Translations under genes and position numbers: made by a program
Shown: piece by piece, positions 12,663 through 62,558 of the stretch
Numbering within the stretch: the first letter of the stretch is position 1
Layout: the number at the start of each line of letters is the position of its first letter
Notes under the pieces: model-generated
Database searches by the model: none
What the model was told of the DNA's origin: nothing
Seen by the model: the letters and a program-made list of their open reading frames with translations, nothing else
Source: an uncultured Candidatus Saccharibacteria bacterium
GTDB taxonomy: Bacteria; Patescibacteriota; Minisyncoccia; UBA6257; JAKLIH01
NCBI GenBank assembly: GCA_964618955.1
Contig: CAZUBO010000002.1
Coordinates: forward strand, 1,582 to 65,581
Reading direction: 5' to 3'
Length of the DNA stretch: 64,000 bases

Positions 12663-13025
12663 ATGCTAAATCTAATCAAAAAATTCATAACTCTAATCTT
12701 GGTGAATTGACTGGGGCTATATGTCTGCCAGAGGATTTTTTCTGAGATAGCAATTACTCATGATTTGAAAACGTTATTTACTTTTTTGATAGTATTATCA
12801 ATTCTGACAGTTATTATAAAGCCAATACTGGATATTCTATTAAAGCCTTTTATTGTTTTGACCTTAGGGATTTTATCAATAGTTGTGAATATGGGAATTG
12901 TATTAGTAGCTAATAATTTTGCTAAAGCCATAATCATTAATAACAATTTTTCTTTGTTCAAGGTGACTTTAGTATTAAGCTTGATAGGATTCTTAGTGAA
13001 TTTAGTAGTAGGACTCAATAATTAA
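12663..13025 (+). CDS. Small 4-TM membrane protein, YvlD / phage-holin-4-like family
   Basis: ATG at 12663 is in frame with ORF 12765..13025 through TGA at 12708. IKPILDILLKPFIVLTLGILSIVVN segment resembles the family core. Confidence 0.55.
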
Positions 13026-45862: not shown

Positions 45863-45890
45863 GTTAATGCTTGGGGTTAAAAAATATATT

Positions 45891-47993
45891 ATGAATTTTA
45901 AAGAATTCACATTGGATATTAATGGGACACCATTAACTATCAAACATTCACTATTGGCAAAACAAACCAATGGTTCAGTTTTGGCTAAGTTCGGGGGATC
46001 CGAAGTATTAGCAATTTCAGTTATGGGGATCGAAGATAAATTCGATAAGGATTGTATGCCTTTATCAGTTGATTTTGAAGAAAAATATTATGCTACTGGC
46101 AAGTTACTGGGTAGCAGATATATGAGAAGAGAATCTAGACCAAGCGAAGGAGCTACATTAACTAGTCGTATGATAGATAGAACTATTAGGCCTTTATTTA
46201 ATCCTTACTTACGTAGAGAGGTTCAAGTTAATGTAACTTGTTTAGCTTTTGATGAAGTTAATGATCCTGATGTGCTATCAATGATTAGTGCTTCATTAGC
46301 ATTAATGATTTCTAATATTCCTTGAAATGGACCAGTTGGCGCTGTTAGAATTGGATACAGCGAGAAGACTGGATTTGTTGTAAATCCAACATATGTTCAA
46401 AGAGAAGAGGGTATGGATTTTGAAATGGTTTTGTCAGGAGTTAAGAACAAAATCAATATGATTGAATTCCAAGGCAGTGAAGTTAGTGACGAATTAATCA
46501 CTCAAGGCTTTGAGATTGGTCAAAAAGTAATAAACCAAATATGTGATTTCCAAACTGAAACTCAAAAAGAAATTGGAAAAGAAAAATCGGGTTTAAATTT
46601 TGTTTGTATTGATCCTGATTTCAAAAAAAGAGCTTATGAATTATTACAAGCAAAACAACAAGAGATTTTATTTAGTAAGACTATGGATAAATTAACTAAG
46701 CAAACTGAAATGGCTTTGTTAGTTAAAAGTACAACTGAAACTTTGAAAGGTGAAGGTTTTGAAGAAGACAAACTTAATACTTTAACTTTGATAATTGAAG
46801 AATTAACAAATGATATTTTACATAATGAAATTTTACAAAAAGGCAATAGACCAGATGGTAGATCGCTTACTGAGATTAGACCATTAGATGCGATGATTGA
46901 TGTAATATCTCGAACTCATGGAAATGCATTGTTTGTTAGAGGTGATACTCAGACATTATCTACTGTTACATTAGGATCGCCATTAGAAACTTTATCAGTT
47001 CAAAGCATGGAGAGCGTTGCAGAAAAAAGATACTTCCATCACTACAACTTCCCACAATGATCAGTTGGAGAAGTTGGAAGATCTAAAGGACCAGGTAGAA
47101 GAGAATTAGGTCATGGAGCATTAGCTGAGAAAGCCATATTGCCAATGTTACCTAGTAAAACTGAATTTCCTTATACTATGAGAGTAGTATCTGAAGTCTT
47201 ATCTTCTAATGGTTCTAGCTCTATGGCTTCAACTTGTTCGTCTTGTTTAGCCTTAATGGCCGCTGGAGTACCATTAAAAGAGATGGTAGCTGGTATTGCT
47301 ATGGGTGTCATTATTGACGAGAAGAACGAAGCAAATTACAAGATTATAACTGATATTCAAGGACCAGAAGATCACTATGGTGATATGGATTTCAAAGTTG
47401 CTGGTACTAAGAATGGTGTAAATGCTTTGCAATTAGATGTGAAGATTAATGGTATTGATGGAGAATTATTAAAGAAAGCTTTAGCTCAAGCTAAAGAAGC
47501 TAGAATGTTTATTCTAGAAAAAATGAAATTAGCTATTAGCGAGCCTAGAAAAGAACTATCTCCATTTGCTCCAAAGATTATTTCGTTTGATGTCAATCCT
47601 GAGAAGATTGGGGAGATCATTGGTTCAGGTGGAAAGACCATAAACAAAATTATTGAAGTTACTGGAACCAAGATTGATATTGAAGAAAAGACCGTATACG
47701 TTATGGGTATGGACTTGGAGAAAGTCATGCAAGCCAAATCAATCATTGAAAACTTGATTAAAGAATATCAAGAAGGAGATATTGTTGAAGGTGTTGTAGA
47801 AGAATTAAAAGACTTTGGTGCTATCGTATACTTTGATGGCAACAATAGTGGATTACTACATATCTCAGAAATATCTGATAAGAGAATTAATAAAGTAACT
47901 GATGTTTTGAAGATTGGAGACAAATTAAAATTAAAAGTTATTAGAGTAGAGAACGGAAGAATTTCTTTATCATTAAGAGAAATGACTAAATAA
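45891..47993 (+). CDS. pnp: Polyribonucleotide nucleotidyltransferase (PNPase)
   Basis: Two RNase PH domains (YNFPQ-W-SVGEVG, SSNGSSSMA), KH (GSGGKTI), S1 (GDIVEGVV). Fragments 45867, 46413 and 47139 are in one frame. An alternative start at 45867 is possible. Confidence 0.93.
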
Positions 47994-47996
47994 TTT

Positions 47997-48030
47997 AAAA
48001 ACCAGCTGAATTAAATCAGTTGGTTTTTTT
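47997..48030. terminator. Bidirectional terminator between pnp and rsmA
   Basis: aaaaaccagctga / tcagttggttttt hairpin (one G-U pair). Confidence 0.7.
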
Positions 48031-48034
48031 GTTT

Positions 48035-48817
48035 TTAAATTAAGTTAATAATTTTTATTCAGGTCTCAAAATCAATATCTTCTGATCGTGATTTTAAATT
48101 GATGTTGAGATTTTGAAATACTTCTTCATAATTAATGGTTTTGGAATAATAGTGTTTTAAGTTAGAGATAGCCATTTTTCTAGGCTGGTGGAAGCTAGCA
48201 TTGATTGCTTTTTCATATTTAGTAATGAATTCTGTATCGTAATTACTATCTTTTTTGGTTAAGCAGATAATTGATGAATCAACTTTAGGAATAGGGAAGA
48301 AGCTGGCTTTAGGAACAGTTTGAATGTATTTAGCTTCGAAAAAAAGATTTACAAACATTGAAAGTTTATTGTTTTTTGAATTCTTCAAAGTAATTCTCTC
48401 AGCTAATTCTTTTTGAAGCATGAGAATTACTTTTTCAGGCTTGGGAGAATTATCAAAAATCATTCTTAAAAGAAAAGAAGATATGTAGTAGGGGATATTA
48501 GCAACAATTTTGAATTGGGTCTTGTTTTCTTTTAAAAAAAGAGTATAATATTCTTTGATGTCAGCGATGATAAGATTTAAATTTGAAAAATCTTTAAATC
48601 TTTCTTTTAAAAGATTTTCCATTCTTTGATCTTTTTCAATAGCGATGATTTGAGCTTTGGTTTGAAGCAAACTTTCGGTAAGATTGCCAGTTCCAGGACC
48701 AATCTCTAAGACGACATCTTGTTCTTTAATATCAGCAGCTTCAACTATCTTTAATAGCGCTGTTTTGGAATTAAGAAAGTTCTGACCGAGTGATTTTTTG
48801 GCTTTGATTGTTTTCAT
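48035..48817 (-). CDS. rsmA: 16S rRNA (adenine1518/1519-N6)-dimethyltransferase
   Basis: KKSLGQNFL, LEIGPGTGNLT, ANIPYYISS motifs. Extends through TGA (48059) to TAA at 48035. Confidence 0.92.
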
Positions 48818-48877
48818 AGTAACCCTTTGATATTTTTTAAAAAATAGTGTATACTATAGGTAATTAAACATCTATTT

Positions 48878-50086
48878 ATGTTCTACTATTGATACCTAAA
48901 TGTATATGCCTATTATAGCAAATTAATTGCCAGAACACAAAGATTTTTGAAGCCAGTAATTAGGTTAGTGGTTTTTGCATTTAAGAAGATTACCAGTAAA
49001 GTTGAATGAGAGTTGATAGGAGCTTATTGCTATAAAAAATGCAAGACCAATACTAATACGATTGCTTTGGTAGTGTTCTTTGTTTTTGCTATTAATGTTG
49101 CTATGATGTTAAATGGGATATCAAATATTTCTTTTTCGAATTTGTTTGCTGATACAAATATTATTGTAGAAGCAATGGATTTACAAGATCCAGTTAGTAC
49201 TCATGAGACGGTTTCGATAAATGATATTAATCTAGATAGCTATGACTACTATCAGAATCTAAATATGGAAGCTAAACCAGAAGACTTCTTAGATCTATAC
49301 TTAGTGGAAGATGAAGCCTTTTTGTTACGTAGTATTGATTTTTCAGAATCAAATATTGATATTTCAAAACCAGATAGAATTATATCGTATGTTGTAAAGC
49401 AGGGAGATACTTTAGAGAAGATTGCTAAGAATTTTGGAATTAATGTAGAAACTTTAAAGACAGCTAATTCTTTGAAAAAATCAGTGATTGCTCCAGGACA
49501 GAAGTTAGTGATTCTTCCAATATCAGGTATTTACTATACTGTTAAGAAGGGGGATAGCTTAGGGAAGTTAGCAATCAAATACAAAATCTCAGCTAGTGTA
49601 ATTCGAGAATACAATAATTTAGAAAATGATACTTTAAAAATTAATGAGAAAATTATCTTACCAGGGGCTAAGGAACAAATAATTGCAAATGTTACTAAGA
49701 GTGGTACAAAAATAACTGAAGTAGGTGGAAGTGGATTCTTCCTATATCCAACAGTAGGATGGAATTGAGGTGAAGCTCATGGAGTAGGTGGTTGTGCAGT
49801 TGATATTGCTAATACCTGTGGCACACCAATCTACGCTAGTGCTGATGGTACAGTAATTGATTTACGAACTAGTGGATACAATTCCGGATATGGACTATAT
49901 ATCAAAATACAACATAACAATGGAACTTCAACATTATATGCTCATTTAAGTCAAATACTAATTACTAATGGCCAATACGTAAGTAGGGGCCAGATGATCG
50001 GGAAGATGGGAACTACTGGTAAATCAACTGGATGTCACTTACACTTTGAAGTGAAGGGTGTAAAAAATCCATTTATTAAAAAATAG
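48878..50086 (+). CDS. Membrane-anchored LysM (x2) + M23 (lysostaphin-type) peptidoglycan endopeptidase
   Basis: Two LysM repeats (YVVKQGDTLEKIAKNFG, YTVKKGDSLGKLAIKY). M23 motifs H-x3-D context (AVDIAN) and HLHFEV after one TGA. The start is uncertain (48878 ATG or a downstream start). Confidence 0.82.
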
Positions 50087-50098
50087 TAAAAATTTACT

Positions 50099-52378
50099 AT
50101 GTCTAAAAAAATAGCCAAAAAAATTCTTTTGATAATTCTTCTGGGTTTTATGATATTAGGAGGAGTTAGCGCTCCAGGAGTGAATTTCAAAGCTCCTAAA
50201 GCTGAAGCTTCTATTTTCAATTGAGTAGCACCTAAAAAAACAGCTGAAACTCCAGTAAAAGGAGACGATGGTACGAAAAAGAATTCTTGTAATACTTGTT
50301 TTGTGGCTGTTAAGACTGGCACAATATGAAATATGTTATCCGCTCCGATTGATACAGTCTTATCGCTTATACCTAGAATTTTAGTATTTGTAATAAAGTG
50401 AATTGTGATTCTTTTGGCAAAACTTTTACAAGCATTAATGGCTCCTCAAGGAGGCGGATTATTCTTTAAATTAAATCAGTTCATGCCAACTTACAATGAA
50501 GCAGGGCAACAAACTAGTTTTATATATTGACTTTGAAGTGTATCGCTTTATTACGCCAATATATTAATAACGTTATTTTTAATTTGAATTGCTATTAATA
50601 TTATTTTGGAGAAAAAAGAATATACCAATTACCAAAATTTAATTAAATTGGTAGGAGTTGCTTTATTAGTTAATTTCTCCTTAGTAATATGTGCGGTATT
50701 TGTAGATATATCTAATTTTATAGCAACTTTATTTATGTCAAATATCGCTATGAATTCTTTTTCTTGTATGTATGCTTGTACTATCCATAAAGTGGCAAAT
50801 ATTTTTAATTGTAAACAAGATAATATGATATTTTCTTTGACAATTTCTAATAGCTTAGCATTAATGGTTGGATTGGTATTTGTTGGACAAATATTAGGAT
50901 TGATTATGTATGTACTTACTCGTATGGTTTATTTATGATTTTTGGTTGGCATATCACCAATTGCTTTTGTATTATCAGCTATACCAGAAACAAGAAAATA
51001 TTACAAACAATGATCTGATTTGTTTATAGCTAATTTGACTAAATTACCAGCATTAGCATTTGCTTCATATTTTATTTTAAATATGATGATCTATATTTCA
51101 AATAATTATATGATGAGTACTGATACTGCTAATACAAATTGAATGCAAAACATATTGGGAATGGGAAATAACACAGCTAGCGAGAATCTTTGAATTTCAA
51201 CTTTAGGAATTGTTTTTATATTATTTATATTATCACAAGCTTTATTAATGGTGGCTCAAAACTTAGGAGTAGAACAGATTTCCAAAGCTTCAGCATTTGC
51301 AACAGGCTGAGCTAAAAAAGGGTGAGATGCAGTGAAGAATCCTACTATGAGCTATGGAAGAAAGAAATTACTTAGTTCGAAGCCAATGCAAAGTTTTACA
51401 AAGACTCTTACTGGCAGTAAAATAGCTCCTCTAACAAGGCTTGGAAACAAAGTCGCTGATCAAATGACTAGGGAACAAAAGAAATCTCAAGGCGAAATTA
51501 ATTACTGAAAAGAAAACTTGAATGCTGGTATGCTTGAGAGAATTGTTAATGACAACAAGAGCGCACGAGGAGATAAAACAAAATTCTTACAAGCCATCCA
51601 AGCCTTGTCAGAAATGCAATCAAAGGGTGATTATAAAGATCCTGGGGTTGGGAAAAATAAGATTAAAATTTTGGATAATCCAGAGAATATGAGTATGGTA
51701 AAGAATTTGGTAGCTGACGATTTATATGGAGAGACTGATGCGGGCAAATTCATGAAGAAGCGTTATACTTGAGTGAAGGCTGGTCCAAAATCAGAAGATT
51801 ATAAGTCTGCAGCCGAAAAGATCTTGGGAACTGGTGCATCTGAAGCTGCTCTTAATAAGAAAATGGAAGAGTTGGCCTTTAGCGCCCCATATTATGATGC
51901 CGCTAGTTTTAAGGGTGGTAAACTAAGAGATGAGCTCTATGGAAGAGCTACTGACCAAGACAAAGCCGGTCTAAATGATTGACACGCCGAAATCAAACAT
52001 CTTTTTGATGCTAGTAAAACTAACCCTGATCCTGAAAAATTTGCCGAAATGTTTCAATTATTTCAAAAAACAATTAGCGCCAAAAAGATGCAATTGATTT
52101 TTAACAAACTACCTAATGTTCAAAGAGCAACATTTTGAGATATGATTGCCAGAATGGCTATAGTAGCGAAGAAAGTTAAGGATAAAAAGCTTGGAAGCAA
52201 TAACCTAGATGCTGAATTCACAAATATAAAACCTGACGAAATATACAATGATGCCGAAGACGCATTGAGCGAATTGGCTGGTGGACAACAATACAGCTGA
52301 ATGGCTACTCCTAAAAACGCGGACTCCCTTTCTTTTGCTAGATCTTTGCGAGATAATGATTTTATAAAGTTAAAATAA
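50099..52378 (+). CDS. VirB6/TrbL-like polytopic membrane protein with long soluble C-terminal extension (759 aa)
   Basis: Signal/anchor, then at least 6 hydrophobic helices rich in TGA-encoded Trp, then about 350 aa of hydrophilic sequence. The assignment rests on topology and on its position directly upstream of VirB3/VirB4 homologs. Confidence 0.5.
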
Positions 52379-52387
52379 AATAACTAT

Positions 52388-53383
52388 ATGATTGTTAATG
52401 CTTTTGAGATATATGATTATTTGCCAGAAAAAATAAAAGAATTATTGTTTAGCCAATTTATGGATAATTTAATGGCAAATATTTTTGCATTAGCAAACAT
52501 CCCAGAAGAAAAACAGATTTCTTTACATCGCGACACAGTTGGAGTGCTGATAGGTAGGCATGATTTAAAACAGTATGAAAATATTTTAAAGACAAATTAT
52601 GGATTAAATGACAACGTAACAGCTACAACAATAGCTCTATTAAACGAGAAATTATTTAACCAAATAACTGATGCTTTAGAAAAATCTAAAGAAGTTTATA
52701 AACGATTTAGTGAAGGCAATATAAAAAACCTATCTAATTCAGTAATATCTGAAACAAAAAATGAGTTCAAAGAACCTGAAAAAATAATGTCTTACATCCA
52801 AGAACTGGCCGAATCAATTAAAAAAGAAGATACTTTACCAGAAGCAAATTTAGAAATTATTCCGACAATTGCTGATATGAAAATTATACCGGAAGAAAAG
52901 AAAATTACTATAAATACGCCGGTTTTAAAACCAGAAGAAGCAAAAGTTGAACCAGTAGTTATCAAGAATGAAGCTGTTGCTGAAGAACCGGTTAAGGAAG
53001 TTGCTCCTGAAGTAAAGCCAGTTGAAGAAGTTCCGGCTTTTGTTCCCAAAGAATCAACGGTGTTTAAGATGATGAAGAATAAAGAAGAACAGAGTAATGG
53101 AAAATTAAATGAATACTTTAAAGCCTTGAAAGATAATTTGGATTTTGGTAATACCAACGAATCAGAGAATATATTCCAACCACCATTCAAGGCCACAAAG
53201 GGAAGGAGTATGATGGTAGAGTCTAGTATCGAAGAATCCAAGGATAATATTGTTGTAAACGAGAGTATTGAACCCAAGAAAAAACCTGTCAGATACAATA
53301 GCTTTGAATTTATGAAGAAGCCAAATACTCCTAGTGAAGCCAAATCAGCTGATGATAAGTTTATTGATTTGGGAGATTTTTAA
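52388..53383 (+). CDS. Hypothetical protein with Pro/Glu/Val-rich linker (331 aa)
   Basis: Uninterrupted ORF. Helical N-domain, PEEAKVEPVVIKNEAVAEEPVKEVAPEVKPVEEVP low-complexity linker, acidic C-terminus. Family unknown. Confidence 0.6.
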   Translation: MIVNAFEIYDYLPEKIKELLFSQFMDNLMANIFALANIPEEKQISLHRDTVGVLIGRHDLKQYENILKTNYGLNDNVTATTIALLNEKLFNQITDALEKSKEVYKRFSEGNIKNLSNSVISETKNEFKEPEKIMSYIQELAESIKKEDTLPEANLEIIPTIADMKIIPEEKKITINTPVLKPEEAKVEPVVIKNEAVAEEPVKEVAPEVKPVEEVPAFVPKESTVFKMMKNKEEQSNGKLNEYFKALKDNLDFGNTNESENIFQPPFKATKGRSMMVESSIEESKDNIVVNESIEPKKKPVRYNSFEFMKKPNTPSEAKSADDKFIDLGDF

Positions 53384-53447
53384 ATCAATTTTTATTGATA
53401 ATTTTTTGGTTTTATGTTACATTATATCTAATAACTAATTTAATATT

Positions 53448-53855
53448 ATGGATGATTATCAAGTACCACAATTCATTGAAGACGAAGCTAGATTAGTAGG
53501 ACCATTCTCCTTTGTCCAGATTTTTATATTAGTTGGTGGTTGTGGTTCAGCCTTGATAGTTTACAAATTATTAAAAGGCTTTTTGGGAATACCAATTGCA
53601 GTAGTATTATTATTCTTAACAGCAATGTTGACTTTTACAAAGTTCAACGATATGCCATTATACAAAATGGTAATTCCAATGATAAAGCATTTTGTATTAC
53701 CAAAATCATACCAATGATCTCAACCTAAAGGGGTAGTTACTAAAAATGAGAATATTAAAACTAAGACTGATTTTGATTTTAAGAATGTTGAGAGCAAGAC
53801 AGATATGAATGCAGTTGATGAATTAACTAAAATATTAGACAAAGGCAATGAATAA
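53448..53855 (+). CDS. PrgI-family / VirB3-like small membrane protein
   Basis: YQVPQFIEDEARLVGPFSFVQ N-terminal motif followed by two TM helices. One TGA. Overlaps the next gene by 8 nt. Confidence 0.65.
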
Positions 53856-54528
53856 AAACAATACTACAAATAATTCAAGTACTCAGAATTTAATGCCAAT
53901 TAATGAAATTCGCAATAATACCGTTATCTTAAAGAATGGTTCTTTAAGATCTATTATTGAAGTTGATGGTATTAATATTGATTTGATGTCAAATGAAGAT
54001 CAGGAGAATACATTAAGAACCTGACAATCATTTTTGAATAATTTGGATTTTTCAGTTCAAATATTAATTGTCTCTAGAAAGGCAAATATTGATGAGTATG
54101 TTAGTAATGTTGAGAGTAAGACTGCTGAAGTTGAAGAAGACTTGCTAAAGACTCAGGTAAACGACTATGTGACTTTTATACGAGACTTTACAGCTAATAA
54201 TCAAATTATTGATAAGAAGTACTATATTATAGTTCCTTATGATCCTTTCATAATGAAGAAGAGTGCTTTTGGGGGACAAATTAAAGATATGTTTTTGAGT
54301 ATTTTTAATTTGAATCGCGAAGCTTTTTCTCAGGATGTATTATTAGATGATAAGGAATTTCAAAAGAATTATCAGCAATTGATTGTTCGACAAGATACAA
54401 TTCTTTCACAATTACAAAGAATGGGGTTATCAGCTCAGTTAGTTCAGACTAATGATATTATTCCTTTGATACATAATATCTACAATCCGGATACAATATT
54501 AAAACCAACATCAACAAAAGAATTTTAA
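53848..54528 (+). CDS. VirB4 N-terminal-domain-like protein (stand-alone, 226 aa)
   Basis: NLMPINEIRNNTVILKNGSLRSIIEVDGINIDLMSNEDQE..FLNNLDFSVQILIVSRKANIDEYV matches the N-terminal module of Gram-positive VirB4/TrsE/PrgJ ATPases. Genuine TAA stop at 54526. Confidence 0.6.
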
Positions 54529-54538
54529 AAAAACAAAT

Positions 54539-56323
54539 ATGTCTATTTTTTCTTCAAAAAAACAAGATAGTGAGACTGATAAGTTGATTAATGATAGTCG
54601 TTCAGGCTATGCTAAAGCCGTAGCTTCTTTACGAGATATCATTTCTCCTTCAGGATTGGTAGTGAATACAACTTCCTTAAAATTAGGAGGAACTTTTGTA
54701 AGGACTTTGTTTATTCTAACTTATCCAAGATATTTAAGCCCAGGGTGATTCTCTTCGATTATCAATTTTGATTCCGCTACAAACTTATCAATATTTTATC
54801 ATCCAATTGATAATTCAAGTATTCTAAGACAGTTACGAAAGAAGTTGGGAGATGTTGGTGCTCAAATACAGTTAGAAGCTGAGAAAGGAGCCCCAAGGAA
54901 TCCAGCTTTGGAAACCGCTATAGAAGATATTGAGAATTTAAGGCAAGCAATAGTTCAGGGAACGGAAAAGATGTTTAGAGTTTCCGTATATATTACTATC
55001 ATGGCTAATTCTGAAAAAGAATTAAATGATACTGAGAATAAGATCAATAGCTTCTTAGAGAGTAAATTAATTTATCCAAAGCCAGCTCACTTTAGACATT
55101 TTGAAGGTTATGAATGTACGGTTCCAGTATGTTTGGATCGCTTAGGTTATGGGACATTATTGAATTCTACTCCAGCTTCAACTTTGTTTCCTTTCATATC
55201 GGCGAATTTAACACAAAATACAGGTATTATGTATGGTATTAATTTAATTAATAACAGCTTAGTTATCTTTGATAGATTTAGTTTAGAGAATGCTAATATG
55301 TGTGTATTCGGAACTTCGGGTAGTGGTAAGAGTTATGCTGTAAAGACTCATGCAATTCGAGAATTAATGATGGGATCAGATATTTTAATTATTGATCCAG
55401 AGAATGAATACGAATACTTAGCTAAAGCTGTTGGTGGAGAGAGCTATAAAATAGCTGTAGCTTCTAAGGACCATATCAATCCTTTTGATTTACCAATCAT
55501 TACGAGTGACGAAACTGTTGGGGAAGTATTTAGAAGCCATATTTTGAATTTGATTGGATTGATTAAGATTTTGTTAGGAGGATTAAGTCCTATGGAAGAG
55601 GTTACAATAGATCAAGCAATTACTTTGACTTATGCTTCAAGAAATATCAATCCAGAAGCTGATACTGCTAATGAGAATATGCCAGTACTAGAAGACTTGG
55701 TGAATGTTTTAAATACTATGGAAGGTGGAGCAAACTTAGCAGCTAAGCTATATAAATACACCAAGGGAACTTACGGAGAATTTTTAAATCATCCTACAAA
55801 TATTAATATTAATAACAAATTTGTTGTTTTTAATATTAATGATTTAGAAGAAGAGTTACGACCTATAGCTATGTATATTTTATTAAACTATGTTTGAAAT
55901 AGCGTTAAGAAAGTTATGAAGAGAAGAATTCTAATTATAGAAGAAGCTTGATTATTAATGAAGTTCAAAGAGAGTGCTAACTTTATGTTGAGCTTTGCTA
56001 AGAGAGCTAGAAAATATTACTTGGGATTAACTACAATTACCCAAGACTTAGATGACTTTTTGAAGTCACCTCAAGGTATTCCAATAATTACAAATTCAAG
56101 TATTAAATTGTTATTCAAACAATCAACTGCTACAATAAAGCAATTGACTGAGACTTTACAATTAACTGAAGTAGAGAAGAATTTATTAACCCAGATAGAG
56201 ATTGGTTCGGGGTTATTCTTAGCAGGGGACAAACATACTTTAATTCAAGTAGTAGCTTCGTATACTGAAGATCAGTTAATTACTTCAGATCCCGAAAGAC
56301 TGATGGCTTTAAAAAACCAATAA
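54539..56323 (+). CDS. VirB4-family type IV secretion ATPase (central + C-terminal ATPase domains, 594 aa)
   Basis: YPRYLSPG-W-FSSII, Walker A GTSGSGKS, IIDPENEY, Walker B-like ILIIEEA-W, TTITQDLDDF. Three fragments are in one frame, joined by TGA. Confidence 0.85.
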
Positions 56324-56333
56324 GAATTAAATT

Positions 56334-57137
56334 ATGCCAGCACCTTTAATTGCTGCCGGAGCAAAAGTAGTAGCGGGTAATATTGCCAAAAGAGAGGCTG
56401 CGAAACAAGCAGCTAAGATGGCTGCCAAAGCTGCTGCTAAAAAAACAGCTGAAGGGGTTGCTAAAAAGACGGCCGAGAAAGTTGGATCTCAAGCTGTTAA
56501 AAGTGGAGTAAAGAATATTCCAATTAAAAGACCTCCTAACAAATTTACACAAGGTTTTAGACAAGCAAATGATATATCGGATAAAGTTCAACAAGCTCAG
56601 AACATATCAAATACTGGAAATGCAAAAGAAGAAGAGAAACAAAAAGAACCTGCTCAAAAAACAACTTTTCTAAATAGAGTTTTAAATCAAAATACCAATA
56701 AAGAAAATGCAACTAATAAGTTTGATTATCGAAAAACATTTAGTGATAAAGGCCAAGTTGATAATGAGAATTCTCAACCTGTCAAAAAACAAGATAAGGG
56801 ATGATATAACGCAGCTATGTTTATGGCTATATGAAAGGATGCTGTTGAGATAGGATTGAATTTAATTGCTTTGGGTTGATTAGGTCCGATACTTAGTTTT
56901 TTACCGACAATTGTGCTAACATTTATATTGTTTATGTCAGGAAAGAAAAGCACTATAAAGATTGTATCTTATTTCTTAGTATTAGTACTAGACTTATTAC
57001 TACCAGGATTTAATGCCTTGCCAGTTACTGTGATTGCTACTTTCATTGTATTCCATATTAAACCAGAAGCCATAAAAGGTTTAGACAAGAATAATGCAAA
57101 TAAAGGGATCGAAATTATTAAAAAGTTTATAAAATAA
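56334..57137 (+). CDS. Hypothetical protein: Ala/Lys-rich N-terminus + multi-TM C-terminus (267 aa)
   Basis: AAGAKVVAGNIAKREAAKQAAKMAAKAAAKKTAEGVAKKTAEK, then a polar linker, then 3-4 TM helices restored through three TGAs. Confidence 0.55.
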
Positions 57138-57141
57138 ATAT

Positions 57142-58212
57142 ATGGTAAAATCTAAATACAAAAAAATTCTATTAGTTTTGGTCATTTTGTTCTTGACGAT
57201 ATCTAACATTACTCGAGTATATGCTCAAGTCAACACAATGACTACCGATCCAAATGTTATAAAACAAGAACTTAAAGCTGAAGGTGTTGGATATATATTC
57301 CAAGTTGGTATTCCTGGTATAGTAGGAGCTAATGCAAAGCTACCGATTACCGGATTGGGTACATTAGTAAACGGTATTATCACCTTGGCTTATAGAATTG
57401 CCATGTTACTTGTTTTATATAAAATAGTAAGCATTGGTTTTAAATATATGACTAGTAAGGGAAACGCCGACATAGTTAGCAGCGTTTCTAAAGGAATGAA
57501 AAATGTTCTAATTGGAATTTTAATTTTATTTGGATCTTATTTAATCTTAAGAACTATTAATCCAGATTTAACAAAAATACCGCAAAATATAAACTGCCCA
57601 AAGGGCACAGCTATTTGTGATGACGCCACTGGTTCTAATTATACTCAAAATAAAGTAGCTTGTCCTTTGCCAGGAGGCACTGTTAGCGTAGACAATCGCA
57701 CAGCTGATGAATTAGAAAATGACATGGGGATAGGGTCTGATAAGTCAATGTTTGACGATGGAATTACAGAAGATGAAGTTAATAAGTTTATTTCATCAAA
57801 TTATGGATCTTTGTATCAAAGTGGTGATTGAACAAATGCTAAAAAAGATTTGTTGTCAGGAAAAGTATCTACTAATATTTGATCAGCAATTAAAAAATTA
57901 ATTGAAAATAAAAATAATTGATTAAGCCCAGATTGTTGAGATAAGATAGAGTTTGGTCCAATCTATACGGGGCATGTAAAAGCAGGAGACTATGAATCGT
58001 GTCATGACTCATATGATGCAGTTGATTTAGTCGTTAGAGATGGTCTTGGAAATCATGACAGAGATGCTGCTAAAGCTTGCATGGAAGATGCTTTAACATA
58101 TCTAAGAGCATATGTATCCGAAGTTACGGCTTGCGACGAAAGAGAATGTCCGCCACCTCATATTCATATACAAGACGTTAATTGTAAGGTTGGATGTAGA
58201 GTTTGTCCTTAA
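57142..58212 (+). CDS. VirB2/TrbC-like pilin module fused to a Cys-rich domain with LAS-type zinc-peptidase-like motifs (356 aa)
   Basis: Signal peptide ending VYAQ. Two hydrophobic helices separated by KYMTSKGNADIVSSVSKGMKN (VirB2-like hairpin). C-terminal domain with about 12 Cys, SCHDSYDAVD (H-x6-D) and PPHIHIQD (H-x-H). Four in-frame TGAs. Confidence 0.5.
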
Positions 58213-58224: not shown

Positions 58225-58255
58225 AAAAACCTCCGAAGTAATTCGGAGGTTTTTT
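58225..58255. terminator. Strong bidirectional terminator closing the T4SS-like operon (overlaps the jag stop)
   Basis: aaaaacctccgaa gtaa ttcggaggttttt. Confidence 0.8.
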
Positions 58256-58724
58256 AATTTCGATAGTTTATCACTACACATCTGTTAGGATTATCTCCCT
58301 CGGATTCACTAGTTAAGTCAGGGTAGAGGGAGATCTCATTATGAATTAATTTTCGGTCTCTAGCGGTCATGGGGTCTAGTTTGACTGGTGTTTTAAAGAT
58401 CATGACGCGTTGAGCAGCCTTCTTGGCTAGGTCTTGGAGTTCACGTTGATGGTTGAGTCTATAGCCGTTGATATCAACTTCAACTCTTCAGATAGGACCA
58501 GTAGTATTGTTTAGATTGGCAATATCAGTTAAGACAATTTCAAAAGCATCGAGGTTAGAACCGAATCTTCCGATGAATAAACTAGCTGTCATTGGAATAT
58601 TGATAGTTACAAAGATTTTATGTTCTGATTCTATTTGTCTTACTTCAATCTCATGACCGTAAGTATTACAGTTCTTGAAGAAGACATTAAGAATATTTTT
58701 TATAACTTCGATGTTTTGTTCCAT
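58254..58724 (-). CDS. jag: Jag-like KH + R3H RNA-binding protein
   Basis: KH-like N-part (IGRFGSNLDAFE). After one TGA, an R3H-type C-part (LDPMTARDRKLIHNEI). Sits directly downstream of yidC, as in many bacteria. Confidence 0.8.
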
Positions 58725-58725
58725 A

Positions 58726-59406
58726 TTATTTAATTACTTTCTTTCTAATATATATTGTTTGAGCGATATTAATTACAGTTAGAATTGTTCAGTAAAGGAA
58801 GATGGCACTCTTGAAGCTCTTGAAATTAAGAATGAAGATTACTGGGAAGACATAGGTGAAGATCTTCATTATATTCTTCTGAGGATCATCATTGCTAAGA
58901 TGCTTTAGAGTTATTAAACCATGCATTACTTGAGTAACTGTTGCTAGGATTGCTAGGATAATACTTGGTTTGGATAGGTCAAATAATCCTAGGAAGGAAT
59001 GACTGATAGGACTTTTAACTAGGTTAGCTAATGTTGGGTAAAGGAATTTGAAGAAGTCAGGTCTAACGGCTACAGAGAAGGCACTGAATAAGCCAAAGAT
59101 AACAAAGATTTGGAAGAAAGCAAAGAAGAAGGCAAAGCTAGGATTGATCTTATTAGTCTTATAGACTTCTAAGAGTAATGCAGTTTGTTGCTGAGGATTG
59201 GCTTTGTTTTCAGCTTGGATTTTCTTTAATTCAGGTTGAATCTTTTGCATTTTCTTTTGGAGAACTTCATTTTGAGTGAATAGAGGCCATAAAAGAAGTC
59301 TAACAAAGACAGTAGCAAGAATAATACTTAGACCAAAATCTTTTAATAAATAAAAACAAAAGAAGAGGATATTAATTATTGGCTTTCAAAAAAATGTTTG
59401 GAACAT
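58726..59406 (-). CDS. yidC: Membrane protein insertase YidC/Oxa1 (short form, 226 aa)
   Basis: ILATVFVRLLLWPL..QKKMQKIQPELKKIQ..NP motifs. ORF 58789..59250 extended on both sides through TGAs. I hand-translated it. Confidence 0.88.
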
Positions 59407-59411
59407 ATAGT

Positions 59412-59744
59412 TTATTTAATTTTATTAAAAAGATATTGGACTTCGGTTTTAATCTCTTCAAAAAGCATGTCTTGAATATTGGTTTTGATTACCAAAACAA
59501 AATCAAAGCTAGACGGAAGAGAAGGAATTAAGTCTCTAACTATACTTCTTAAGATTCTTTTGAAATGGTTTCGGGTTACAGCTTTTTTGAAAGTTTTGTT
59601 AGAGACGACAAAGGCAAAACGAGAGTTAGAGATTTCGTTTTTAGCAAAGTTGATAATTAATCCTTTGCCAAAAACGCTTTGCTTATTACTAAAGACTTTT
59701 TTAATATCAGTTTCTTTTTTGAGACGATATTTTAAAGCTAACAT
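59412..59744 (-). CDS. rnpA: Ribonuclease P protein component
   Basis: 110 aa, basic. RFAFVVSNK..AVTRNHFKRILR (RNR-like motif). Position between rpmH and yidC. Confidence 0.88.
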   Translation of the reverse strand: MLALKYRLKKETDIKKVFSNKQSVFGKGLIINFAKNEISNSRFAFVVSNKTFKKAVTRNHFKRILRSIVRDLIPSLPSSFDFVLVIKTNIQDMLFEEIKTEVQYLFNKIK

Positions 59745-59748
59745 AGTG

Positions 59749-59889
59749 TTAAGCGCTTAATTTGACTCTACCTTTCATGCGACGGCCTTTAACGACTTTT
59801 TTCCCAGCACAGGTTGATTGTCTAGCTAAAAAACCAAACTTTCTTGCTCTTTTAACCTTACTTGGTTGATAAGTTCTTTTTGTTGCCAT
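59749..59889 (-). CDS. rpmH: 50S ribosomal protein L34
   Basis: [46 protein letters not shown]. Confidence 0.95.
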
Positions 59890-60215
59890 AATATATAGTT
59901 TTAGTATTTAATAGTTATATGATAACATATTTTTTTGTAGAAAACAAGGGGGAAAATTAGTTAAGAAAAGAAGGTTTTTTGATAACTTTACTGTACCACA
60001 TTAAGGAGTGAAAATTTCATTGTATGGTATATCTAGGACCAGGGACATCATTGACGCTCTATCCTTTCATTTTAGCACTGCAAAAAGATAGAAGATATTG
60101 GCATTTCTAGTGTTTTGTACTAGAATGAGCATGGTAGTTAATTTTAGTATCTATTCATTGAAATTTTAATATATTTATGATATATTTGCAATATATTAAA
60201 TTTAATAAAATACTT

Positions 60216-60821
60216 ATGGCAAATTATGCTTTTATAGATGTACAAAATACTGACACAACAACAAAAGGGTTGTTAGGTTTTTCTACAGATTGGTTAAAAT
60301 TATTTCGTTTTCTAAAGAATAAAAAGAGTTGCGAGAAAGTATTTTTTTATACCGGAGTTTACGAAGGAGATCTAGAGACGATAAGCGTTATAGAAAGTTT
60401 AGAAAGAGAAGGTTGTATAATGAGAAAAAAATTATTACGCCTTTATAAAAGAAAAAACCGAGAAATAAATGTGGTATGTCCAAATTGCAATCATATGTTT
60501 ATTAAATATATTAACACTGGGTACGATCATAAAGCCAATTGCGATGTTGATTTAACGGTAGACGCAATGCAGTTGATTGATAAAGAAAATCGATTCTATT
60601 TCTTTACTGGCGATGGTGATTTCGAATACTTGGCCGAAATGGCCGCTAAAAACAATAATAAAGTAACGATAGTTTCTAGCAGTAAAAAAATTAAAGATGG
60701 TCCAAATCATTATTTCTCAAGATTATCCACCAAATTAAGAGCTTTGACTTTTTCTTATAGAGGAATTATTAATTTTGAAGATATAAATAATTATCGGCAA
60801 GTTATTGAGAAAAAAGAATAA
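60216..60821 (+). CDS. NYN-domain (LabA/DUF88-like) predicted RNase with inserted zinc ribbon
   Basis: AFIDVQN start, CDVDLTVDA, FTGDGDFEYL acidic motifs of PIN-like NYN domains. CPNC..x..H..C insert. No TGA. Trp encoded as TGG. Confidence 0.7.
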   Translation: MANYAFIDVQNTDTTTKGLLGFSTDWLKLFRFLKNKKSCEKVFFYTGVYEGDLETISVIESLEREGCIMRKKLLRLYKRKNREINVVCPNCNHMFIKYINTGYDHKANCDVDLTVDAMQLIDKENRFYFFTGDGDFEYLAEMAAKNNNKVTIVSSSKKIKDGPNHYFSRLSTKLRALTFSYRGIINFEDINNYRQVIEKKE

Positions 60822-60837
60822 AAAAATGGAAAGGAAG

Positions 60838-60864
60838 CGAAGCGCGACCTTTCCTAATGTTATT
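60838..60864 (+). terminator. GC-rich hairpin after the NYN gene
   Basis: ggaaagg aagcgaagcgcga cctttcc. Confidence 0.45.
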
Positions 60865-61157
60865 TATATATTATCATATTTTATAAAAAAATGCAATAGT
60901 AAAGGTATTAAAATATACTCTGATAGAAGGGCATAGGATTTTTTGTTTTTTATCTTTTCTCCATCTATAGAACTAAAGGTTGTCAATAATGCTACGGTTT
61001 TTATACTAATTTGCCAGTTCTAAAATCACAATAATTCTTATCCCCACCTTTTCCACAGAAAGACGATAAAAAAGGCGTTATTGTATTGAAAATTTTTGAA
61101 AAAGCAGTTATACTATTATTACTAATTGACTTGCAGAAAAATACTAAACTGATTCTT

Positions 61158-62558
61158 ATGAATGCAGATGAATTGAAAAAATTATGAAAAGACGTAATGT
61201 CAGAAATAGAACTAAATATTTCTAGAGCAAATTTTGTTACTTGATTTAAGAATAGTGCTATTATCGATAAGAATAAAGATACGGTAACCGTAGCTACTAA
61301 TTCTAATTTTGCTAAAGAATGATTAGAGAATAGATACAATAAATATATTAAGAAGGCTTTAGAGAAGTTAGCTCCGGAAATTAAGAATGTAATATATAAA
61401 GTAGAATCAATTGAGAATATTCAGAAATTCCAAACAGCAATTGAAGAAGGAAAGAAGACTGAAGTAGTAAAAGTTAAAAAGCCAGCTGAGCAAACTGATT
61501 CTTTAACTAAGATTGCTCAAGATCCAAATACTAATTTAAATTCAAAATATACTTTTGATAATTTAGTAGTTGGTTCTCACAATGAATTAGCTCATGCAGC
61601 AGCTTTAGCGGTATTAGATAATTTAGGTTCCAAATACAATCCTTTGTTTATTTATGGAGGAGTTGGATTAGGGAAGACTCATTTAATGCAAGCTTTAGGA
61701 AATGCTTTTAGACAGAGTAACAAAAAATTAAATATCTGATATATCAATACTGAGAAATTAGTTAATGATATTATTGGATCTATTCGTGAACAAACAATTG
61801 ATACAGTAAAGAAGCAATACAAAAAGTTAGATATATTATTGATTGATGATATTCAATTCTTAGCTAATAAAGAAAAGACTCAGGAAGAAGTATTCCATAT
61901 CTTTAATACTCTGTATGATGCTAACAAACAAATTGTCTTTACGTCTGACCGACCACCAAAGGCAATACCAGGATTAGAAGAGAGATTACGATCACGGTTT
62001 GAAGGTGGAATGGTAGCTGATATTAGTCTACCTAATTACGAGACTAGAGTCGCAATATTGAAGAATAAACTACGAGAGAAGAAGACGAATTTACCAGATG
62101 AAATTATTGACTATATTGCTCAGAATATTACTAATAACGTTAGAGAATTAGAAGGGGCTTTAAATACGTTATTAATTAACTTTGAAGTTAAGAAGATTAC
62201 TCCAAGTATTGAATTATCAAAGAAGTTGTTAGAAGATTTTATTAAGAAGCCAAAGAAGATGGTGACGCCTAATGATGTTTTAAAGTTAGTATCAGCTTTC
62301 TATGATATTTCAGTTGATAAGATCAAAGGGGAATCACGAAGGAAAGACTTGGTAAAGGCAAGACAAATTACTATGTATATCTTACGAGATGTTGTGAAGT
62401 TATCTTATCCAGCTATTGGAGAAGTTTTTAATCACAAAGACCATACAACAGTAATGCATTCATGTAAGAAGATTGAAGACGAGAAATTAAAGGATAGTGT
62501 ATTAAATCAAGAGTTAGAATCGATAATTGAAAAGTTGAATTATGATGTGTTTAACTAG
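61158..62558 (+). CDS. dnaA: Chromosomal replication initiator DnaA
   Basis: The N-terminus has three TGAs (61185, 61242, 61320) exactly where E. coli and B. subtilis DnaA have Trp. Walker [20 protein letters not shown], box VII/VIII, C-terminal DNA-binding HTTV motif. Confidence 0.95.

What the first reader, a model, noticed from the sequence alone, without database searches (positions are those of the whole stretch)
48878..58212. Origin-proximal, chromosomally fixed type IV secretion-like operon lacking relaxase, coupling protein and integrase
Eight co-directional genes are separated by 4-64 nt or overlap, and the set is closed by a strong terminator (58225-58255). In order they are:
- LysM-M23 peptidoglycan hydrolase
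- VirB6-like polytopic protein
- an unknown protein
- PrgI/VirB3-like protein
- VirB4 N-domain protein
- VirB4 ATPase
- an unknown Ala/Lys-rich membrane protein
- VirB2-like pilin fused to a Cys-rich domain

This is the minimal Gram-positive-style T4SS core. No MOB relaxase, VirD4/TraG coupling ATPase, oriT-like repeat, integrase or tRNA-flanked boundary is visible. The flanks are core genes (pnp, rsmA on one side, jag-yidC-rnpA-rpmH-dnaA on the other). The operon uses TGA=Trp heavily, so it is long resident in this genome.

The arrangement therefore looks like a domesticated secretion or uptake machine. It could be a ComB-like DNA importer or an effector/contact apparatus rather than a conjugative element. 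Three of its eight proteins have no recognisable family.
Basis: partly seen in the sequence, partly recalled or inferred. Interest (0 to 1): 0.85.

Follow-up and report, generated by a model that had tools for sequence, protein, structure and literature searches.

The report
Known Patescibacteria type IV secretion operon
This is a real eight-gene type IV secretion operon, but it is one more copy of the chromosomal, relaxase-free system already described across the ultra-small Patescibacteria (CPR), whose function is still unknown; the one unusual detail is a pilin that seems to carry a cell-wall-cutting domain.

Summary
With TGA read as Trp, eight co-directional ORFs sit exactly at 48878-58212. 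They are 4-64 nt apart or overlap, and a strong hairpin closes the set. They encode LysM-M23 hydrolase, an extended VirB6-like protein, an unknown, PrgI/VirB3, a TrsD-like VirB4 N-domain, a VirB4 ATPase, an unknown membrane protein and a VirB2-like pilin. The flanks are pnp and rsmA on one side and jag, yidC, rnpA, rpmH, dnaA and dnaN on the other. No relaxase, coupling protein or integrase was found among the proteins scanned from the window.

The organism is not a mollicute. It is a Patescibacteria (Minisyncoccia/Paceibacteria) genome of the UGA=Trp family JAKLIH01. The same gene order and flanks recur in at least ten related genomes.

Quinonero-Coronel et al. 2025 describe this dnaA-proximal, relaxase-less, MPF_FATA-derived T4SS in about 2,400 genomes. 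Wang et al. 2023 showed it is essential for epibiotic growth of one saccharibacterium. Its function is still unknown.

Three things are added here:
- The two unknowns are conserved T4SS-linked families in Paceibacteria.
- The pilin's Cys-rich C-terminal domain looks like a LAS/M15-type zinc peptidase (moderate confidence).
- GC skew does not invert at dnaA.

The parts
48827..48855 (+). Promoter-like site (TTGATA, 17-nt spacer, TATACT) 22 nt upstream of g1. Weak evidence only.
   Evidence: Such sites are not more frequent here than in shuffles (66 found against 59.7 expected), so this is only a candidate.
48878..50086 (+). g1: membrane-anchored peptidoglycan hydrolase with two LysM domains and an M23 domain. 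It would be the functional analogue of VirB1.
   Evidence: Pfam M23 E 1.2e-29 and LysM E 4.7e-27. One TM segment at residues 57-84. Found at the same position in L001-L010.
50099..52378 (+). g2: 'extended' VirB6-like polytopic membrane protein. It has a signal/TM segment, about five TM helices, and a hydrophilic C-terminal region of about 360 aa.
   Evidence: No hit of its own. Of its homologues, 8 of 16 carry PF19590 and 5 of 15 hit TrbL/VirB6, best E 2.5e-4. TM profile. The profile reaches the proteins upstream of PrgI/VirB4 in Saccharibacteria loci.
52388..53383 (+). g3: conserved soluble acidic protein of unknown family. It has a helical N-domain of about 110 aa, a low-complexity linker and a conserved C-terminal KFIDLGDF motif. 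It always lies directly upstream of PrgI.
   Evidence: No Pfam, NCBIfam or PDB match. The profile finds the positional equivalents in L001-L010 and in standard-code loci L012, L014, L015, L017, L019 and L036. Only 19 representatives among 1.84 billion proteins.
53448..53855 (+). g4: PrgI/VirB3-like protein with two TM helices.
   Evidence: Pfam PrgI 28.9 bits against a cut-off of 27. It also aligns to positions 26-119 of the fused mycoplasma VirB3-VirB4 model. Overlaps g5 by 8 nt.
53848..54528 (+). g5: TrsD-like protein, that is, the N-terminal domain of VirB4 encoded as a separate protein.
   Evidence: NCBIfam TrsD E 2.2e-10, VirB4_plasma positions 95-233 E 2.6e-15, VirB4_CagE positions 4-127. 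Precomputed PF26593 TraC-like.
54539..56323 (+). g6: VirB4 ATPase (C-terminal motor part), with affinity to the monoderm class MPF_FATA.
   Evidence: NCBIfam CD1110 family 356 bits against a cut-off of 325. Pfam P-loop_TraG E 1.6e-26. PDB 4ag5 (Thermoanaerobacter VirB4) E 5e-36, against TrwK E 2e-5. Walker A GTSGSGKS and Walker B-like IIEEAW. All named top homologues among 7,995 hits are Patescibacteria.
56334..57137 (+). g7: membrane protein of unknown family. It has a variable Ala/Lys-rich N-terminal tail and a conserved C-terminal block of 3-4 TM helices. It always lies directly downstream of VirB4.
   Evidence: No Pfam, NCBIfam or PDB match. The profile finds proteins of 132-156 aa at the same position in L011, L012, L014-L016 and L018. 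TM profile.
57142..58212 (+). g8: Sec signal peptide, VirB2-like T4SS pilin hairpin (about residues 55-145), a Cys-containing linker, and a C-terminal domain (about residues 205-356) predicted to be a LAS/M15-like zinc peptidase.
   Evidence: Pilin part: T4SS_pilin in 10 of 12 homologues and TrbC/VirB2 in 4. Relatives L007 and L011 score 33-35 bits against a cut-off of 26.6. Agrobacterium T-pilus VirB2 appears among the fold hits at 27-28% identity.

C-terminal domain: pLDDT 80-92. PDB fold ranks 1, 3 and 4 are M15C L-Ala-D-Glu peptidases, with E 0.2-0.5. S-x-H-x6-D and H-x-H are invariant or nearly so. hhalign aligns the H-x6-D motif to that of T5 endolysin.
58225..58254 (.). Bidirectional intrinsic terminator hairpin between the convergent genes g8 and jag.
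   Evidence: 13-bp stem, dG -18.4 kcal/mol, z -4.24, and 0 of 200 shuffles fold as well.

Best explanation
The operon is this lineage's vertically inherited copy of the Patescibacteria-type T4SS. That system is a derivative of the monoderm (MPF_FATA) conjugation machinery that has lost its link to relaxase-based DNA transfer.

Shown:
- A VirB4 motor is split into a TrsD-like N-domain (g5) and an ATPase (g6).
- It is encoded next to a VirB3/PrgI membrane protein (g4), an extended VirB6-like polytopic protein (g2), a LysM-M23 cell-wall hydrolase (g1) and a VirB2-like pilin (g8).
- Two further lineage-conserved partners of unknown fold are present (g3, soluble; g7, membrane).
- All eight genes are tightly packed and closed by one terminator.

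Inferred:
- VirB4, TrsD and PrgI dock on the VirB6-like channel in the single membrane.
- g1 opens the cell's own wall.
- The ATPase drives extraction and polymerisation of g8 into a short pilus or conduit. Its outward-facing C-terminal LAS-type peptidase domain would meet peptidoglycan, plausibly that of the host cell the epibiont sits on.
- The machine then passes macromolecules between host and epibiont.

Direction of transport is not established anywhere in the field. My estimates are:
- Import of host material (nucleic acid or other macromolecules, ComB-like): about 0.4.
- Effector export: about 0.3.
- A role limited to pilus, adhesion or wall remodelling: about 0.1.
- Conjugation: about 0.05.
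- The remainder, about 0.15, is left unassigned.

The confidence figure refers to the identity and general architecture, not to the direction.
For: Identity:
- Profile hits for six of the eight proteins, directly or through their families.
- VirB4 is closest to a Firmicutes VirB4 structure (4ag5, E 5e-36), far ahead of TrwK.
- Its database neighbours are Patescibacteria at 40-99% identity.

Vertical inheritance:
- Identical gene order and flanks in L001-L010.
- Profile-level conservation of g2, g3, g4, g7 and g8 in standard-code Paceibacteria, and of g2, g4 and g8 in Saccharibacteria.
- The UGA=Trp reassignment is used throughout the operon.

Not an ICE: no relaxase, T4CP or integrase among the window proteins scanned, and the flanks are housekeeping genes.

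Literature:
- The same system, context and conclusion in about 2,400 genomes (PMC12102498).
- Essential for epibiotic growth in Southlakia epibionticum while ComEC is dispensable (PMC10633639; PMC12857230).
- Tubular structures that may be T4SS pili were seen at a parasite-host interface (bioRxiv 10.64898/2026.06.21.733656).

Surface exposure: motor proteins are 62-90% identical among close relatives, while g1, g2, g3, g7 and g8 are 28-63% identical. This fits fast-evolving, exposed parts.

Peptidase on the pilin.
Against: - No experiment exists for this lineage.
- The direction of transport is pure inference.
- A VirD4-like coupling protein may be encoded elsewhere. The 2025 survey found such homologues in most Patescibacteria genomes, usually far from virB4.
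- No VirB8-like component was recognised.
- g2 and g8 fall below the family thresholds on their own sequences.
- The LAS-peptidase assignment rests on fold matches that are not significant (E 0.2-0.5), a short motif alignment (hhalign probability 17%), and no Pfam or PDB sequence hit.
- A pilus made of subunits carrying a 200-aa domain has no structural precedent, as far as I know.
Confidence: 0.85

Rival explanations
1. The machine exports protein effectors (or a toxin) into or onto the host bacterium, as pathogen T4SSs do. The pilus would act as the delivery conduit.
For: Researchers on Saccharibacteria have speculated on effector delivery (PMC11665869; PMC10633639). T4SSs without a coupling protein that export proteins exist, namely Bordetella Ptl and Brucella VirB (PMC12857230; PMC12102498). 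g3 is a soluble acidic protein with a conserved C-terminal motif and could be a substrate or an adaptor.
Against: No candidate effector genes are recognisable in or next to the operon. No T4CP, the usual substrate receptor, was found in the window. Nothing here distinguishes export from import.
Confidence: 0.3
2. It is the mating-pair-formation module of a conjugative or mobilisable element, active or decayed, whose relaxase, coupling protein and integrase lie outside the window.
For: VirB4 belongs to a conjugation-derived family (CD1110, TraC, TrsD hits). A minority of Patescibacteria do carry relaxases, 109 in 103 genomes (PMC12102498).
Against: The same insertion point between rsmA and jag, with the same eight genes, occurs in ten relatives at 66-90% VirB4 identity. 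There is no integrase, repeat boundary or tRNA at the edges. GC content equals that of the flanks. The 48 kb upstream and 6 kb downstream consist of housekeeping, cell-surface and a few unassigned genes, with no mobile-element gene.
Confidence: 0.05
3. The system translocates nothing. It only builds a VirB2-type surface filament or anchor and remodels the wall, for adhesion to or penetration of the host envelope.
For: Two of the eight proteins are predicted wall hydrolases, one of them fused to the pilin. The window has no substrate-recognition ATPase. Pilin genes are essential in S. epibionticum.
Against: The window also encodes type IV pilins with lectin domains that could serve adhesion. 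Retention of a VirB6-like channel protein across the phylum (PMC12102498) suggests a translocation pore.
Confidence: 0.1

Closest known systems
Patescibacteria T4SS clade (Quinonero-Coronel et al. 2025, PMC12102498; S. epibionticum SEML1_0006-0019, Wang et al. 2023)
   Same: The components match: VirB4, TrsD, PrgI/VirB3, VirB6, a VirB2-like pilin and a LysM/M23-type hydrolase. There is no relaxase. It is chromosomal and lies next to dnaA, dnaN, rnpA, ksgA and rpmH.
   Different: The host belongs to the UGA=Trp family JAKLIH01. There is a single pilin gene rather than an array, and it carries a C-terminal LAS-like domain. I did not find that fusion in the parts of those papers I read. Whether these genomes were in the 2025 dataset could not be established.
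Monoderm conjugative T4SSs of class MPF_FATA (pCF10 prgH-prgI-prgJ-prgK, pGO1 TrsC-TrsD-TrsE, CTn2 CD1110)
   Same: The order VirB6-VirB3-VirB4 with a cell-wall hydrolase is shared. So are the separate TrsD-like protein, as in pGO1, and the best family and structure matches. The pCF10 and pGO1 gene orders are from established knowledge and from PMC12102498.
   Different: No relaxase, T4CP, adhesin or recognisable VirB8-like protein is present. A VirB2-like pilin is present, which monoderm systems normally lack. The system is fixed in the chromosome.
Helicobacter pylori ComB DNA-uptake T4SS
   Same: It works without a coupling protein or relaxase and uses VirB2-, VirB3-, VirB4- and VirB6-like parts. 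It is cited in the field as the precedent for import (PMC11665869).
   Different: ComB is a diderm system with VirB7-10 and belongs to a different VirB4 class. No sequence-level relationship beyond the T4SS superfamily was seen. Import is untested here.
Mycoplasma ICE VirB4 (Mbov_0397 family)
   Same: g4, g5 and g6 together tile this fused VirB3-VirB4 model (positions 26-119, 95-233 and 277-892). The TGA=Trp code is shared.
   Different: The score is 283 bits against a cut-off of 590, so it is not a member. Here there are three separate genes, the host is a CPR bacterium, and it is not on an ICE.
M15C / LAS zinc peptidases (phage T5 L-Ala-D-Glu endolysin 2mxz, Serratia ChiX 5opz, LysECD7 8q2g)
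   Same: This concerns the C-terminal domain of g8 only. It shares the S-x-H-x6-D motif and a C-terminal zinc-ligand His (H-x-H in g8, D-x-x-H in T5 endolysin), the same order of strands and helices, and the top fold matches.
   Different: There is no significant sequence or profile match. It has extra Cys pairs and an additional helical N-terminal subdomain, and it is fused to a pilin.

Membership tests
Patescibacteria-type T4SS | VirB4 ATPase with affinity to the monoderm class MPF_FATA | tested here: met
   CD1110-family model 356 bits against a cut-off of 325. 4ag5 E 5e-36 against TrwK E 2e-5. Walker A is intact.
Patescibacteria-type T4SS | VirB4 falls inside the monophyletic Patescibacteria clade | tested here: inconclusive
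   All named top hits and 80 genome loci are Patescibacteria at 40-99% identity. No phylogeny with outgroups was built.
Patescibacteria-type T4SS | Separate TrsD-like protein encoded next to virB4 | tested here: met
   g5: TrsD E 2.2e-10 and VirB4 N-part E 2.6e-15. It lies 10 nt upstream of g6.
Patescibacteria-type T4SS | PrgI/VirB3 homologue near virB4 | tested here: met
   g4: Pfam PrgI 28.9 bits against a cut-off of 27.
Patescibacteria-type T4SS | VirB6 homologue | tested here: inconclusive
   g2 has no hit of its own. Of its homologues, 8 of 16 carry PF19590 and 5 of 15 hit TrbL at best E 2.5e-4, below the gathering score. The topology is polytopic.
Patescibacteria-type T4SS | VirB2-like pilin (PF18895 or PF04956) near virB4 | tested here: met
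   g8 itself scores only 12 bits. Its aligned orthologues L007 and L011 score 33-35 bits against a cut-off of 26.6, and 10 of 12 homologues hit the family.
Patescibacteria-type T4SS | No relaxase near virB4; chromosomal context with dnaA, dnaN, rnpA, ksgA and rpmH | tested here: met
   with synteny.
Patescibacteria-type T4SS | Required for epibiotic growth | not testable with these tools
   Shown only for S. epibionticum (PMC10633639).
Conjugative element (ICE or plasmid T4SS) | MOB relaxase | tested here: not met
   None among the eight operon proteins, the ten flank proteins and the 30 other window proteins scanned. The rest of the genome was not seen.
Conjugative element (ICE or plasmid T4SS) | VirD4/TcpA-type coupling protein | tested here: not met
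   None in the window (same calls). It could lie elsewhere in the genome, as is common in Patescibacteria.
Conjugative element (ICE or plasmid T4SS) | Integrase and insertion boundaries (att repeats, tRNA) | tested here: not met
   No integrase. The nearest tRNA is at 30015. The same junctions to rsmA and jag occur in ten genomes. No repeat search of the boundaries was run.
LAS / M15 zinc peptidase (g8 C-terminal domain) | Zinc-ligand motifs H-x6-D and a C-terminal His (H-x-H) | tested here: met
   H288, D295, H340 and H342 are invariant or nearly so in 10 clade members; L008 lacks the first His.
LAS / M15 zinc peptidase (g8 C-terminal domain) | Significant profile or sequence match to an M15 family | tested here: not met
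   No Pfam hit at E<=10. No relevant PDB profile hit. hhalign covers only the 21-residue motif, with probability 17%.
LAS / M15 zinc peptidase (g8 C-terminal domain) | LAS fold | tested here: inconclusive
   The model has pLDDT 80-92 in this domain. Foldseek ranks 1, 3 and 4 are M15C peptidases with TM (target) 0.46-0.55, but E is 0.2-0.5.
ComB-like DNA-uptake T4SS | T4SS acting in import, without T4CP or relaxase | not testable with these tools
   The part list is compatible. The function is unknown.

The most novel reading that the evidence does not exclude
In the UGA=Trp Paceibacteria family JAKLIH01, the only T4SS pilin is fused to an active LAS/M15-type peptidoglycan peptidase displayed on the outside of the filament. 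The T4SS pilus would then itself be a wall-cutting tool that bores through the host's peptidoglycan to open the feeding or transfer channel. I know of no described T4SS with this feature. It would give a direct biochemical handle on what the enigmatic Patescibacteria T4SS does.
Probability: 0.3. Interest if true: 0.55.

Novelty: new member of a known kind. Interest (0 to 1): 0.25.

Why it matters
The Patescibacteria T4SS is essential in the one species tested. It is conserved in about 80% of genomes of a phylum that may hold a quarter of bacterial diversity, and nobody knows what it moves or in which direction.

This instance does not change that picture. It does contribute four points:
- The system is retained, with identical context, in the recently recognised UGA=Trp lineage.
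- It defines two further conserved, unnamed components: one soluble protein upstream of PrgI and one membrane protein downstream of VirB4.
- It offers a testable lead, a predicted peptidoglycan peptidase fused to the pilin, which points to direct action of the pilus on a cell wall.
- The routine 'near the origin, hence highly expressed' argument is not supported by GC skew in this clade.

Tried and rejected
- **TGA = Gly (code 25, as in Gracilibacteria).** Rejected: relatives show W, never G, at the window's TGA sites, and conserved motifs need W.
- **Mollicute origin.** Rejected by the VirB4 neighbours and locus titles.
- **g3 and g7 families.** Pfam, NCBIfam and PDB-profile searches found nothing credible, on single sequences or on family alignments. 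DUF4112 matched 2 of 14 g7 members at E 0.003 and was judged noise.
- **Reach of the g3 N-domain.** A full HMMER search of 1.84 billion representatives gave 19 hits and no informative fusions.
- **g3 as the N-terminal part of the longer Saccharibacteria PrgI proteins.** No signal.
- **Single-sequence model of the g8 C-domain.** Unusable, pLDDT 45.
- **Fold search of g8 in the viral library.** Nothing informative.
- **PDB profile search with the g8 C-domain alignment.** No peptidase hit.
- **DnaA boxes.** Not enriched (22 found against 21.6 expected).
- **Rfam.** Only tRNAs in the window.
- **Supplement of the 2025 paper.** Searched for the related assemblies; not found in the text held.
- **Source contig.** Not retrievable beyond short Logan contigs.

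Full report
**1. The observation**

The window is 30.7% G+C. Standard-code ORF calling breaks the genes at TGA. The gaps between them are 12, 9, 64, 10, 10 and 4 nt, and g4 and g5 overlap by 8 nt.

The eight genes contain 32 in-frame TGA and one TGG. The meaning of TGA was tested without circularity. At the window's TGA positions in ten conserved proteins, relatives that use the standard code have W in 82 of 137 aligned cells, Y or F in 25, and never G. The code is therefore table 4, not table 25.

The hairpin at 58225-58254 has a 13-bp stem, dG -18.4 kcal/mol and z -4.2. It lies between an A-run and a T-run, in the gap between the convergent genes g8 and jag.

The flanks were verified by Pfam:
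- Upstream: PNPase and RsmA/KsgA.
- Downstream: Jag (R3H), YidC, RnpA, L34 (59749-59889, minus strand), then DnaA and DnaN.

**2. The eight proteins**

| Gene | Call | Evidence |
|---|---|---|
| g1 | Two LysM domains plus an M23 peptidase behind one TM helix | |
| g2 | Extended VirB6-like: signal/TM segment, about five TM helices, hydrophilic tail of about 360 aa | No hit of its own. 8 of 16 homologues carry PF19590, and 5 of 15 hit TrbL/VirB6 at best E 2.5e-4 |
| g3 | Unknown, soluble | |
| g4 | PrgI/VirB3 | 28.9 bits against a cut-off of 27 |
| g5 | TrsD-like, that is, the N-terminal part of VirB4 | E 2e-10 to 3e-15 |
| g6 | VirB4 ATPase | CD1110-family cut-off passed, 356 against 325 bits. 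Walker A GTSGSGKS, Walker B-like IIEEAW |
| g7 | Unknown, membrane | |
| g8 | Signal peptide plus VirB2-like pilin plus C-terminal domain | Own T4SS_pilin score 12 bits. 10 of 12 homologues hit the family. Orthologues L007 and L011 score 33-35 bits against 26.6 |

g6 is far closer to the Thermoanaerobacter VirB4 structure (E 5e-36) than to R388 TrwK (E 2e-5). Together, g4, g5 and g6 tile the fused mycoplasma VirB3-VirB4 model. The g8 family profile also retrieves the pilin arrays of Saccharibacteria loci.

Profile iteration over the related loci shows that g3 and g7 are not orphans. A g3-type gene lies directly upstream of PrgI, and a g7-type gene directly downstream of VirB4, also in standard-code Paceibacteria (alignments).

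**3. Organism and inheritance**

The VirB4 search gives 7,995 hits. All named ones at the top are Patescibacteria, also called Paceibacteria or Minisyncoccia. Among species-representative genomes, the 80 best loci are Patescibacteria.

Loci L001-L010 (66-90% VirB4 identity) show the same order, pnp-rsmA-[eight genes]-jag-yidC-rnpA-dnaA-dnaN, as far as each contig reaches. Gene sizes are similar. L012, L014-L019 and L036 keep a looser order:
- All keep the core PrgI - TrsD - VirB4.
- Most also have the VirB6-like and g3-like genes upstream of it.
- Most have small membrane or pilin genes downstream.
- Those whose contig extends far enough end in jag-yidC-rnpA-dnaA-dnaN.

In-frame TGA occurs only in L001-L011. 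More distant Paceibacteria use none, and Gracilibacteria use TGA=Gly.

L009 is an assembly with accession prefix JAKLIH01. A 2026 preprint reports UGA-to-Trp in the Minisyncoccia family JAKLIH01 as the first case in the phylum (10.64898/2026.05.24.727570). The window most probably belongs to that family.

No relaxase, VirD4/TraG, integrase or transposase appears among the 30 other window proteins scanned. The nearest tRNA is 18 kb away, and G+C is flat across the window. Mobile-element explanations are therefore very unlikely.

**4. What is already known**

Quinonero-Coronel et al. 2025 (PMC12102498) searched 3,035 Patescibacteria genomes. Their main results were:
- 2,425 VirB4 proteins form a monophyletic clade nested in MPF_FATA.
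- TrsD, PrgI/VirB3, VirB6 and VirB2-like pilins accompany it, and some VirB1-like proteins carry M23 or LysM domains.
- Relaxases are almost absent, and T4CP homologues mostly lie far from virB4.
- In Paceibacteria, the most frequent neighbours of virB4 include dnaA, dnaN, rnpA, ksgA and rpmH.
- They conclude that the system has been repurposed, perhaps for import.

Wang et al. 2023 (PMC10633639) showed by Tn-seq that the T4SS genes, the pilins among them, are essential for epibiotic growth of Southlakia epibionticum. The competence channel ComEC is dispensable there. Reviews call the role 'completely unknown' and name effector delivery or uptake as options. A 2026 preprint shows tubular structures that may be T4SS pili at a parasite-host contact and argues for feeding on host RNA.

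The system is not a new kind.

**5. What is added here**

(a) The C-terminal, Cys-rich domain of g8 is modelled with pLDDT 80-92 from a 12-sequence alignment.
- In the PDB fold search, ranks 1, 3 and 4 are M15C L-Ala-D-Glu peptidases: 23ri, ChiX 5opz and LysECD7 8q2g. TM-scores normalised to the target are 0.46-0.55. E-values of 0.2-0.5 are not significant, partly because more than half of the query is disordered or membrane helix.
- Ten clade members share S-C-H-x6-D (H288, D295) and P-H-x-H (H340, H342), plus four invariant Cys. Only the first His is not invariant: L008 lacks it.
- The order strand(AVDLVV) - helix - strand - strand(HIHIQ) matches that of T5 endolysin.
- hhalign aligns SCHDSYDAVDLVV with SKHITGDAIDFAP of T5 endolysin (pairwise E 0.0015, probability 17%).
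- No Pfam or PDB sequence hit supports the assignment.

I rate 'LAS-type zinc peptidase' at about 0.6. Given the VirB2 topology, with both termini outside and the loop inside, the domain would be extracellular. This is inferred from the TM profile and from established VirB2 topology. The fusion seems confined to the UGA=Trp clade, with 12 homologues among 5.8 billion proteins. Other Paceibacteria pilins carry other extensions.

(b) The motor proteins are 62-90% identical among L001-L006 and L009, whereas g1, g2, g3, g7 and g8 are 28-63% identical. This is the pattern expected for exposed parts that interact with a host.

(c) GC skew is positive over the whole 64 kb, on minus-strand genes as well, and does not change sign between rpmH and dnaA. 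It only rises from about 0.16 to about 0.26. DnaA-box-like sites are not enriched. 'Origin-proximal' is thus a statement about gene linkage, not about a demonstrated origin.

**6. Mechanism**

Shown: the gene set, its tight packing and its conservation.

Inferred:
- VirB4, TrsD and PrgI assemble on the VirB6-like channel.
- g1 opens the cell's own wall.
- VirB4 powers assembly of g8 into a short filament or conduit whose outer peptidase domain meets peptidoglycan.
- Macromolecules then pass between host and epibiont.

I lean towards import (about 0.4) over effector export (about 0.3). The reasons are these:
- The part list mirrors the T4CP-less ComB logic.
- These organisms cannot make nucleotides.
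- ComEC is dispensable in the one tested species.
- PNPase is the conserved upstream neighbour in this clade.

All of this is circumstantial.

**7. Verdict**

This is a real, well-described feature and an ordinary member of a known and much-discussed system. The pilin-peptidase fusion is a modest but testable new lead.

Noticed in passing
whole window; loci L001-L011: The genome uses UGA=Trp although it is a Patescibacteria genome. Only the closest clade (L001-L011) does so. Neighbouring Paceibacteria use the standard code and Gracilibacteria use UGA=Gly. This matches the family JAKLIH01 reported in a 2026 preprint as the first table-4 lineage of the phylum.
   Followed up: yes
window 57750-58212 (g8 residues about 205-356): The Cys-rich C-terminal domain of the VirB2-like pilin has invariant or nearly invariant H-x6-D and H-x-H motifs and a predicted fold closest to M15C L-Ala-D-Glu peptidases. 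That would be a peptidoglycan peptidase fused to a T4SS pilin.
   Followed up: partly
window 1-64000, especially 58254-62558: GC skew is positive everywhere, on minus-strand genes as well, and shows no sign change at the rpmH|dnaA or dnaA|dnaN gaps. DnaA-box-like sites are not enriched. The replication origin may not be at dnaA in this clade.
   Followed up: partly
window 31233-32474, 35771-37009, 40768-42006: There are three dispersed paralogues, 79-83% identical, of a type IV pilin (N-terminal methylation motif) fused to a LamG/concanavalin-like lectin domain. Housekeeping genes lie between them. They are candidate host-adhesion pilins.
   Followed up: partly
window 45867-48817; loci L001-L006, L008-L010: PNPase and RsmA lie directly upstream of the operon in nine of the ten close relatives; the L007 contig starts too late to show it. 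This is of interest because a recent preprint links PNPase and VirB4 to feeding on host RNA.
   Followed up: partly
window 56334-56800 (g7 N-terminus): g7 has a histone-H1-like Ala/Lys-rich tail of about 60 aa ahead of its TM block. The tail is Ala/Lys-rich in the closest relatives but Ala/Gly/Ser-rich or acidic in others, so it is probably a variable disordered region rather than a conserved nucleic-acid-binding domain.
   Followed up: partly
window 50087-57141 (intergenic gaps of the operon): None of the short gaps contains a Shine-Dalgarno-like GGAGG. The gaps are A/T-rich, and one pair of genes overlaps (ATGAATAA), which suggests translational coupling or SD-independent initiation.
   Followed up: no
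window 60177-60821: A gene for a NYN-domain (predicted RNase) protein sits between rpmH and dnaA.
   Followed up: no
window 9671-10933 and 7527-9605: Two sizeable proteins have no Pfam family: a 420-aa highly charged protein with a hydrophobic C-terminal segment, and a 692-aa polytopic membrane protein.
   Followed up: no
window 55937-55954 (g6 residues 467-472): The VirB4 Walker B-like motif reads IIEEAW here and in part of the clade, where most relatives have DEAW.
   Followed up: partly
window 12663-13025: A small four-TM protein matches the family 'Mycobacterial 4 TMS phage holin, superfamily IV' (E 4e-11). No other phage genes are nearby.
   Followed up: no
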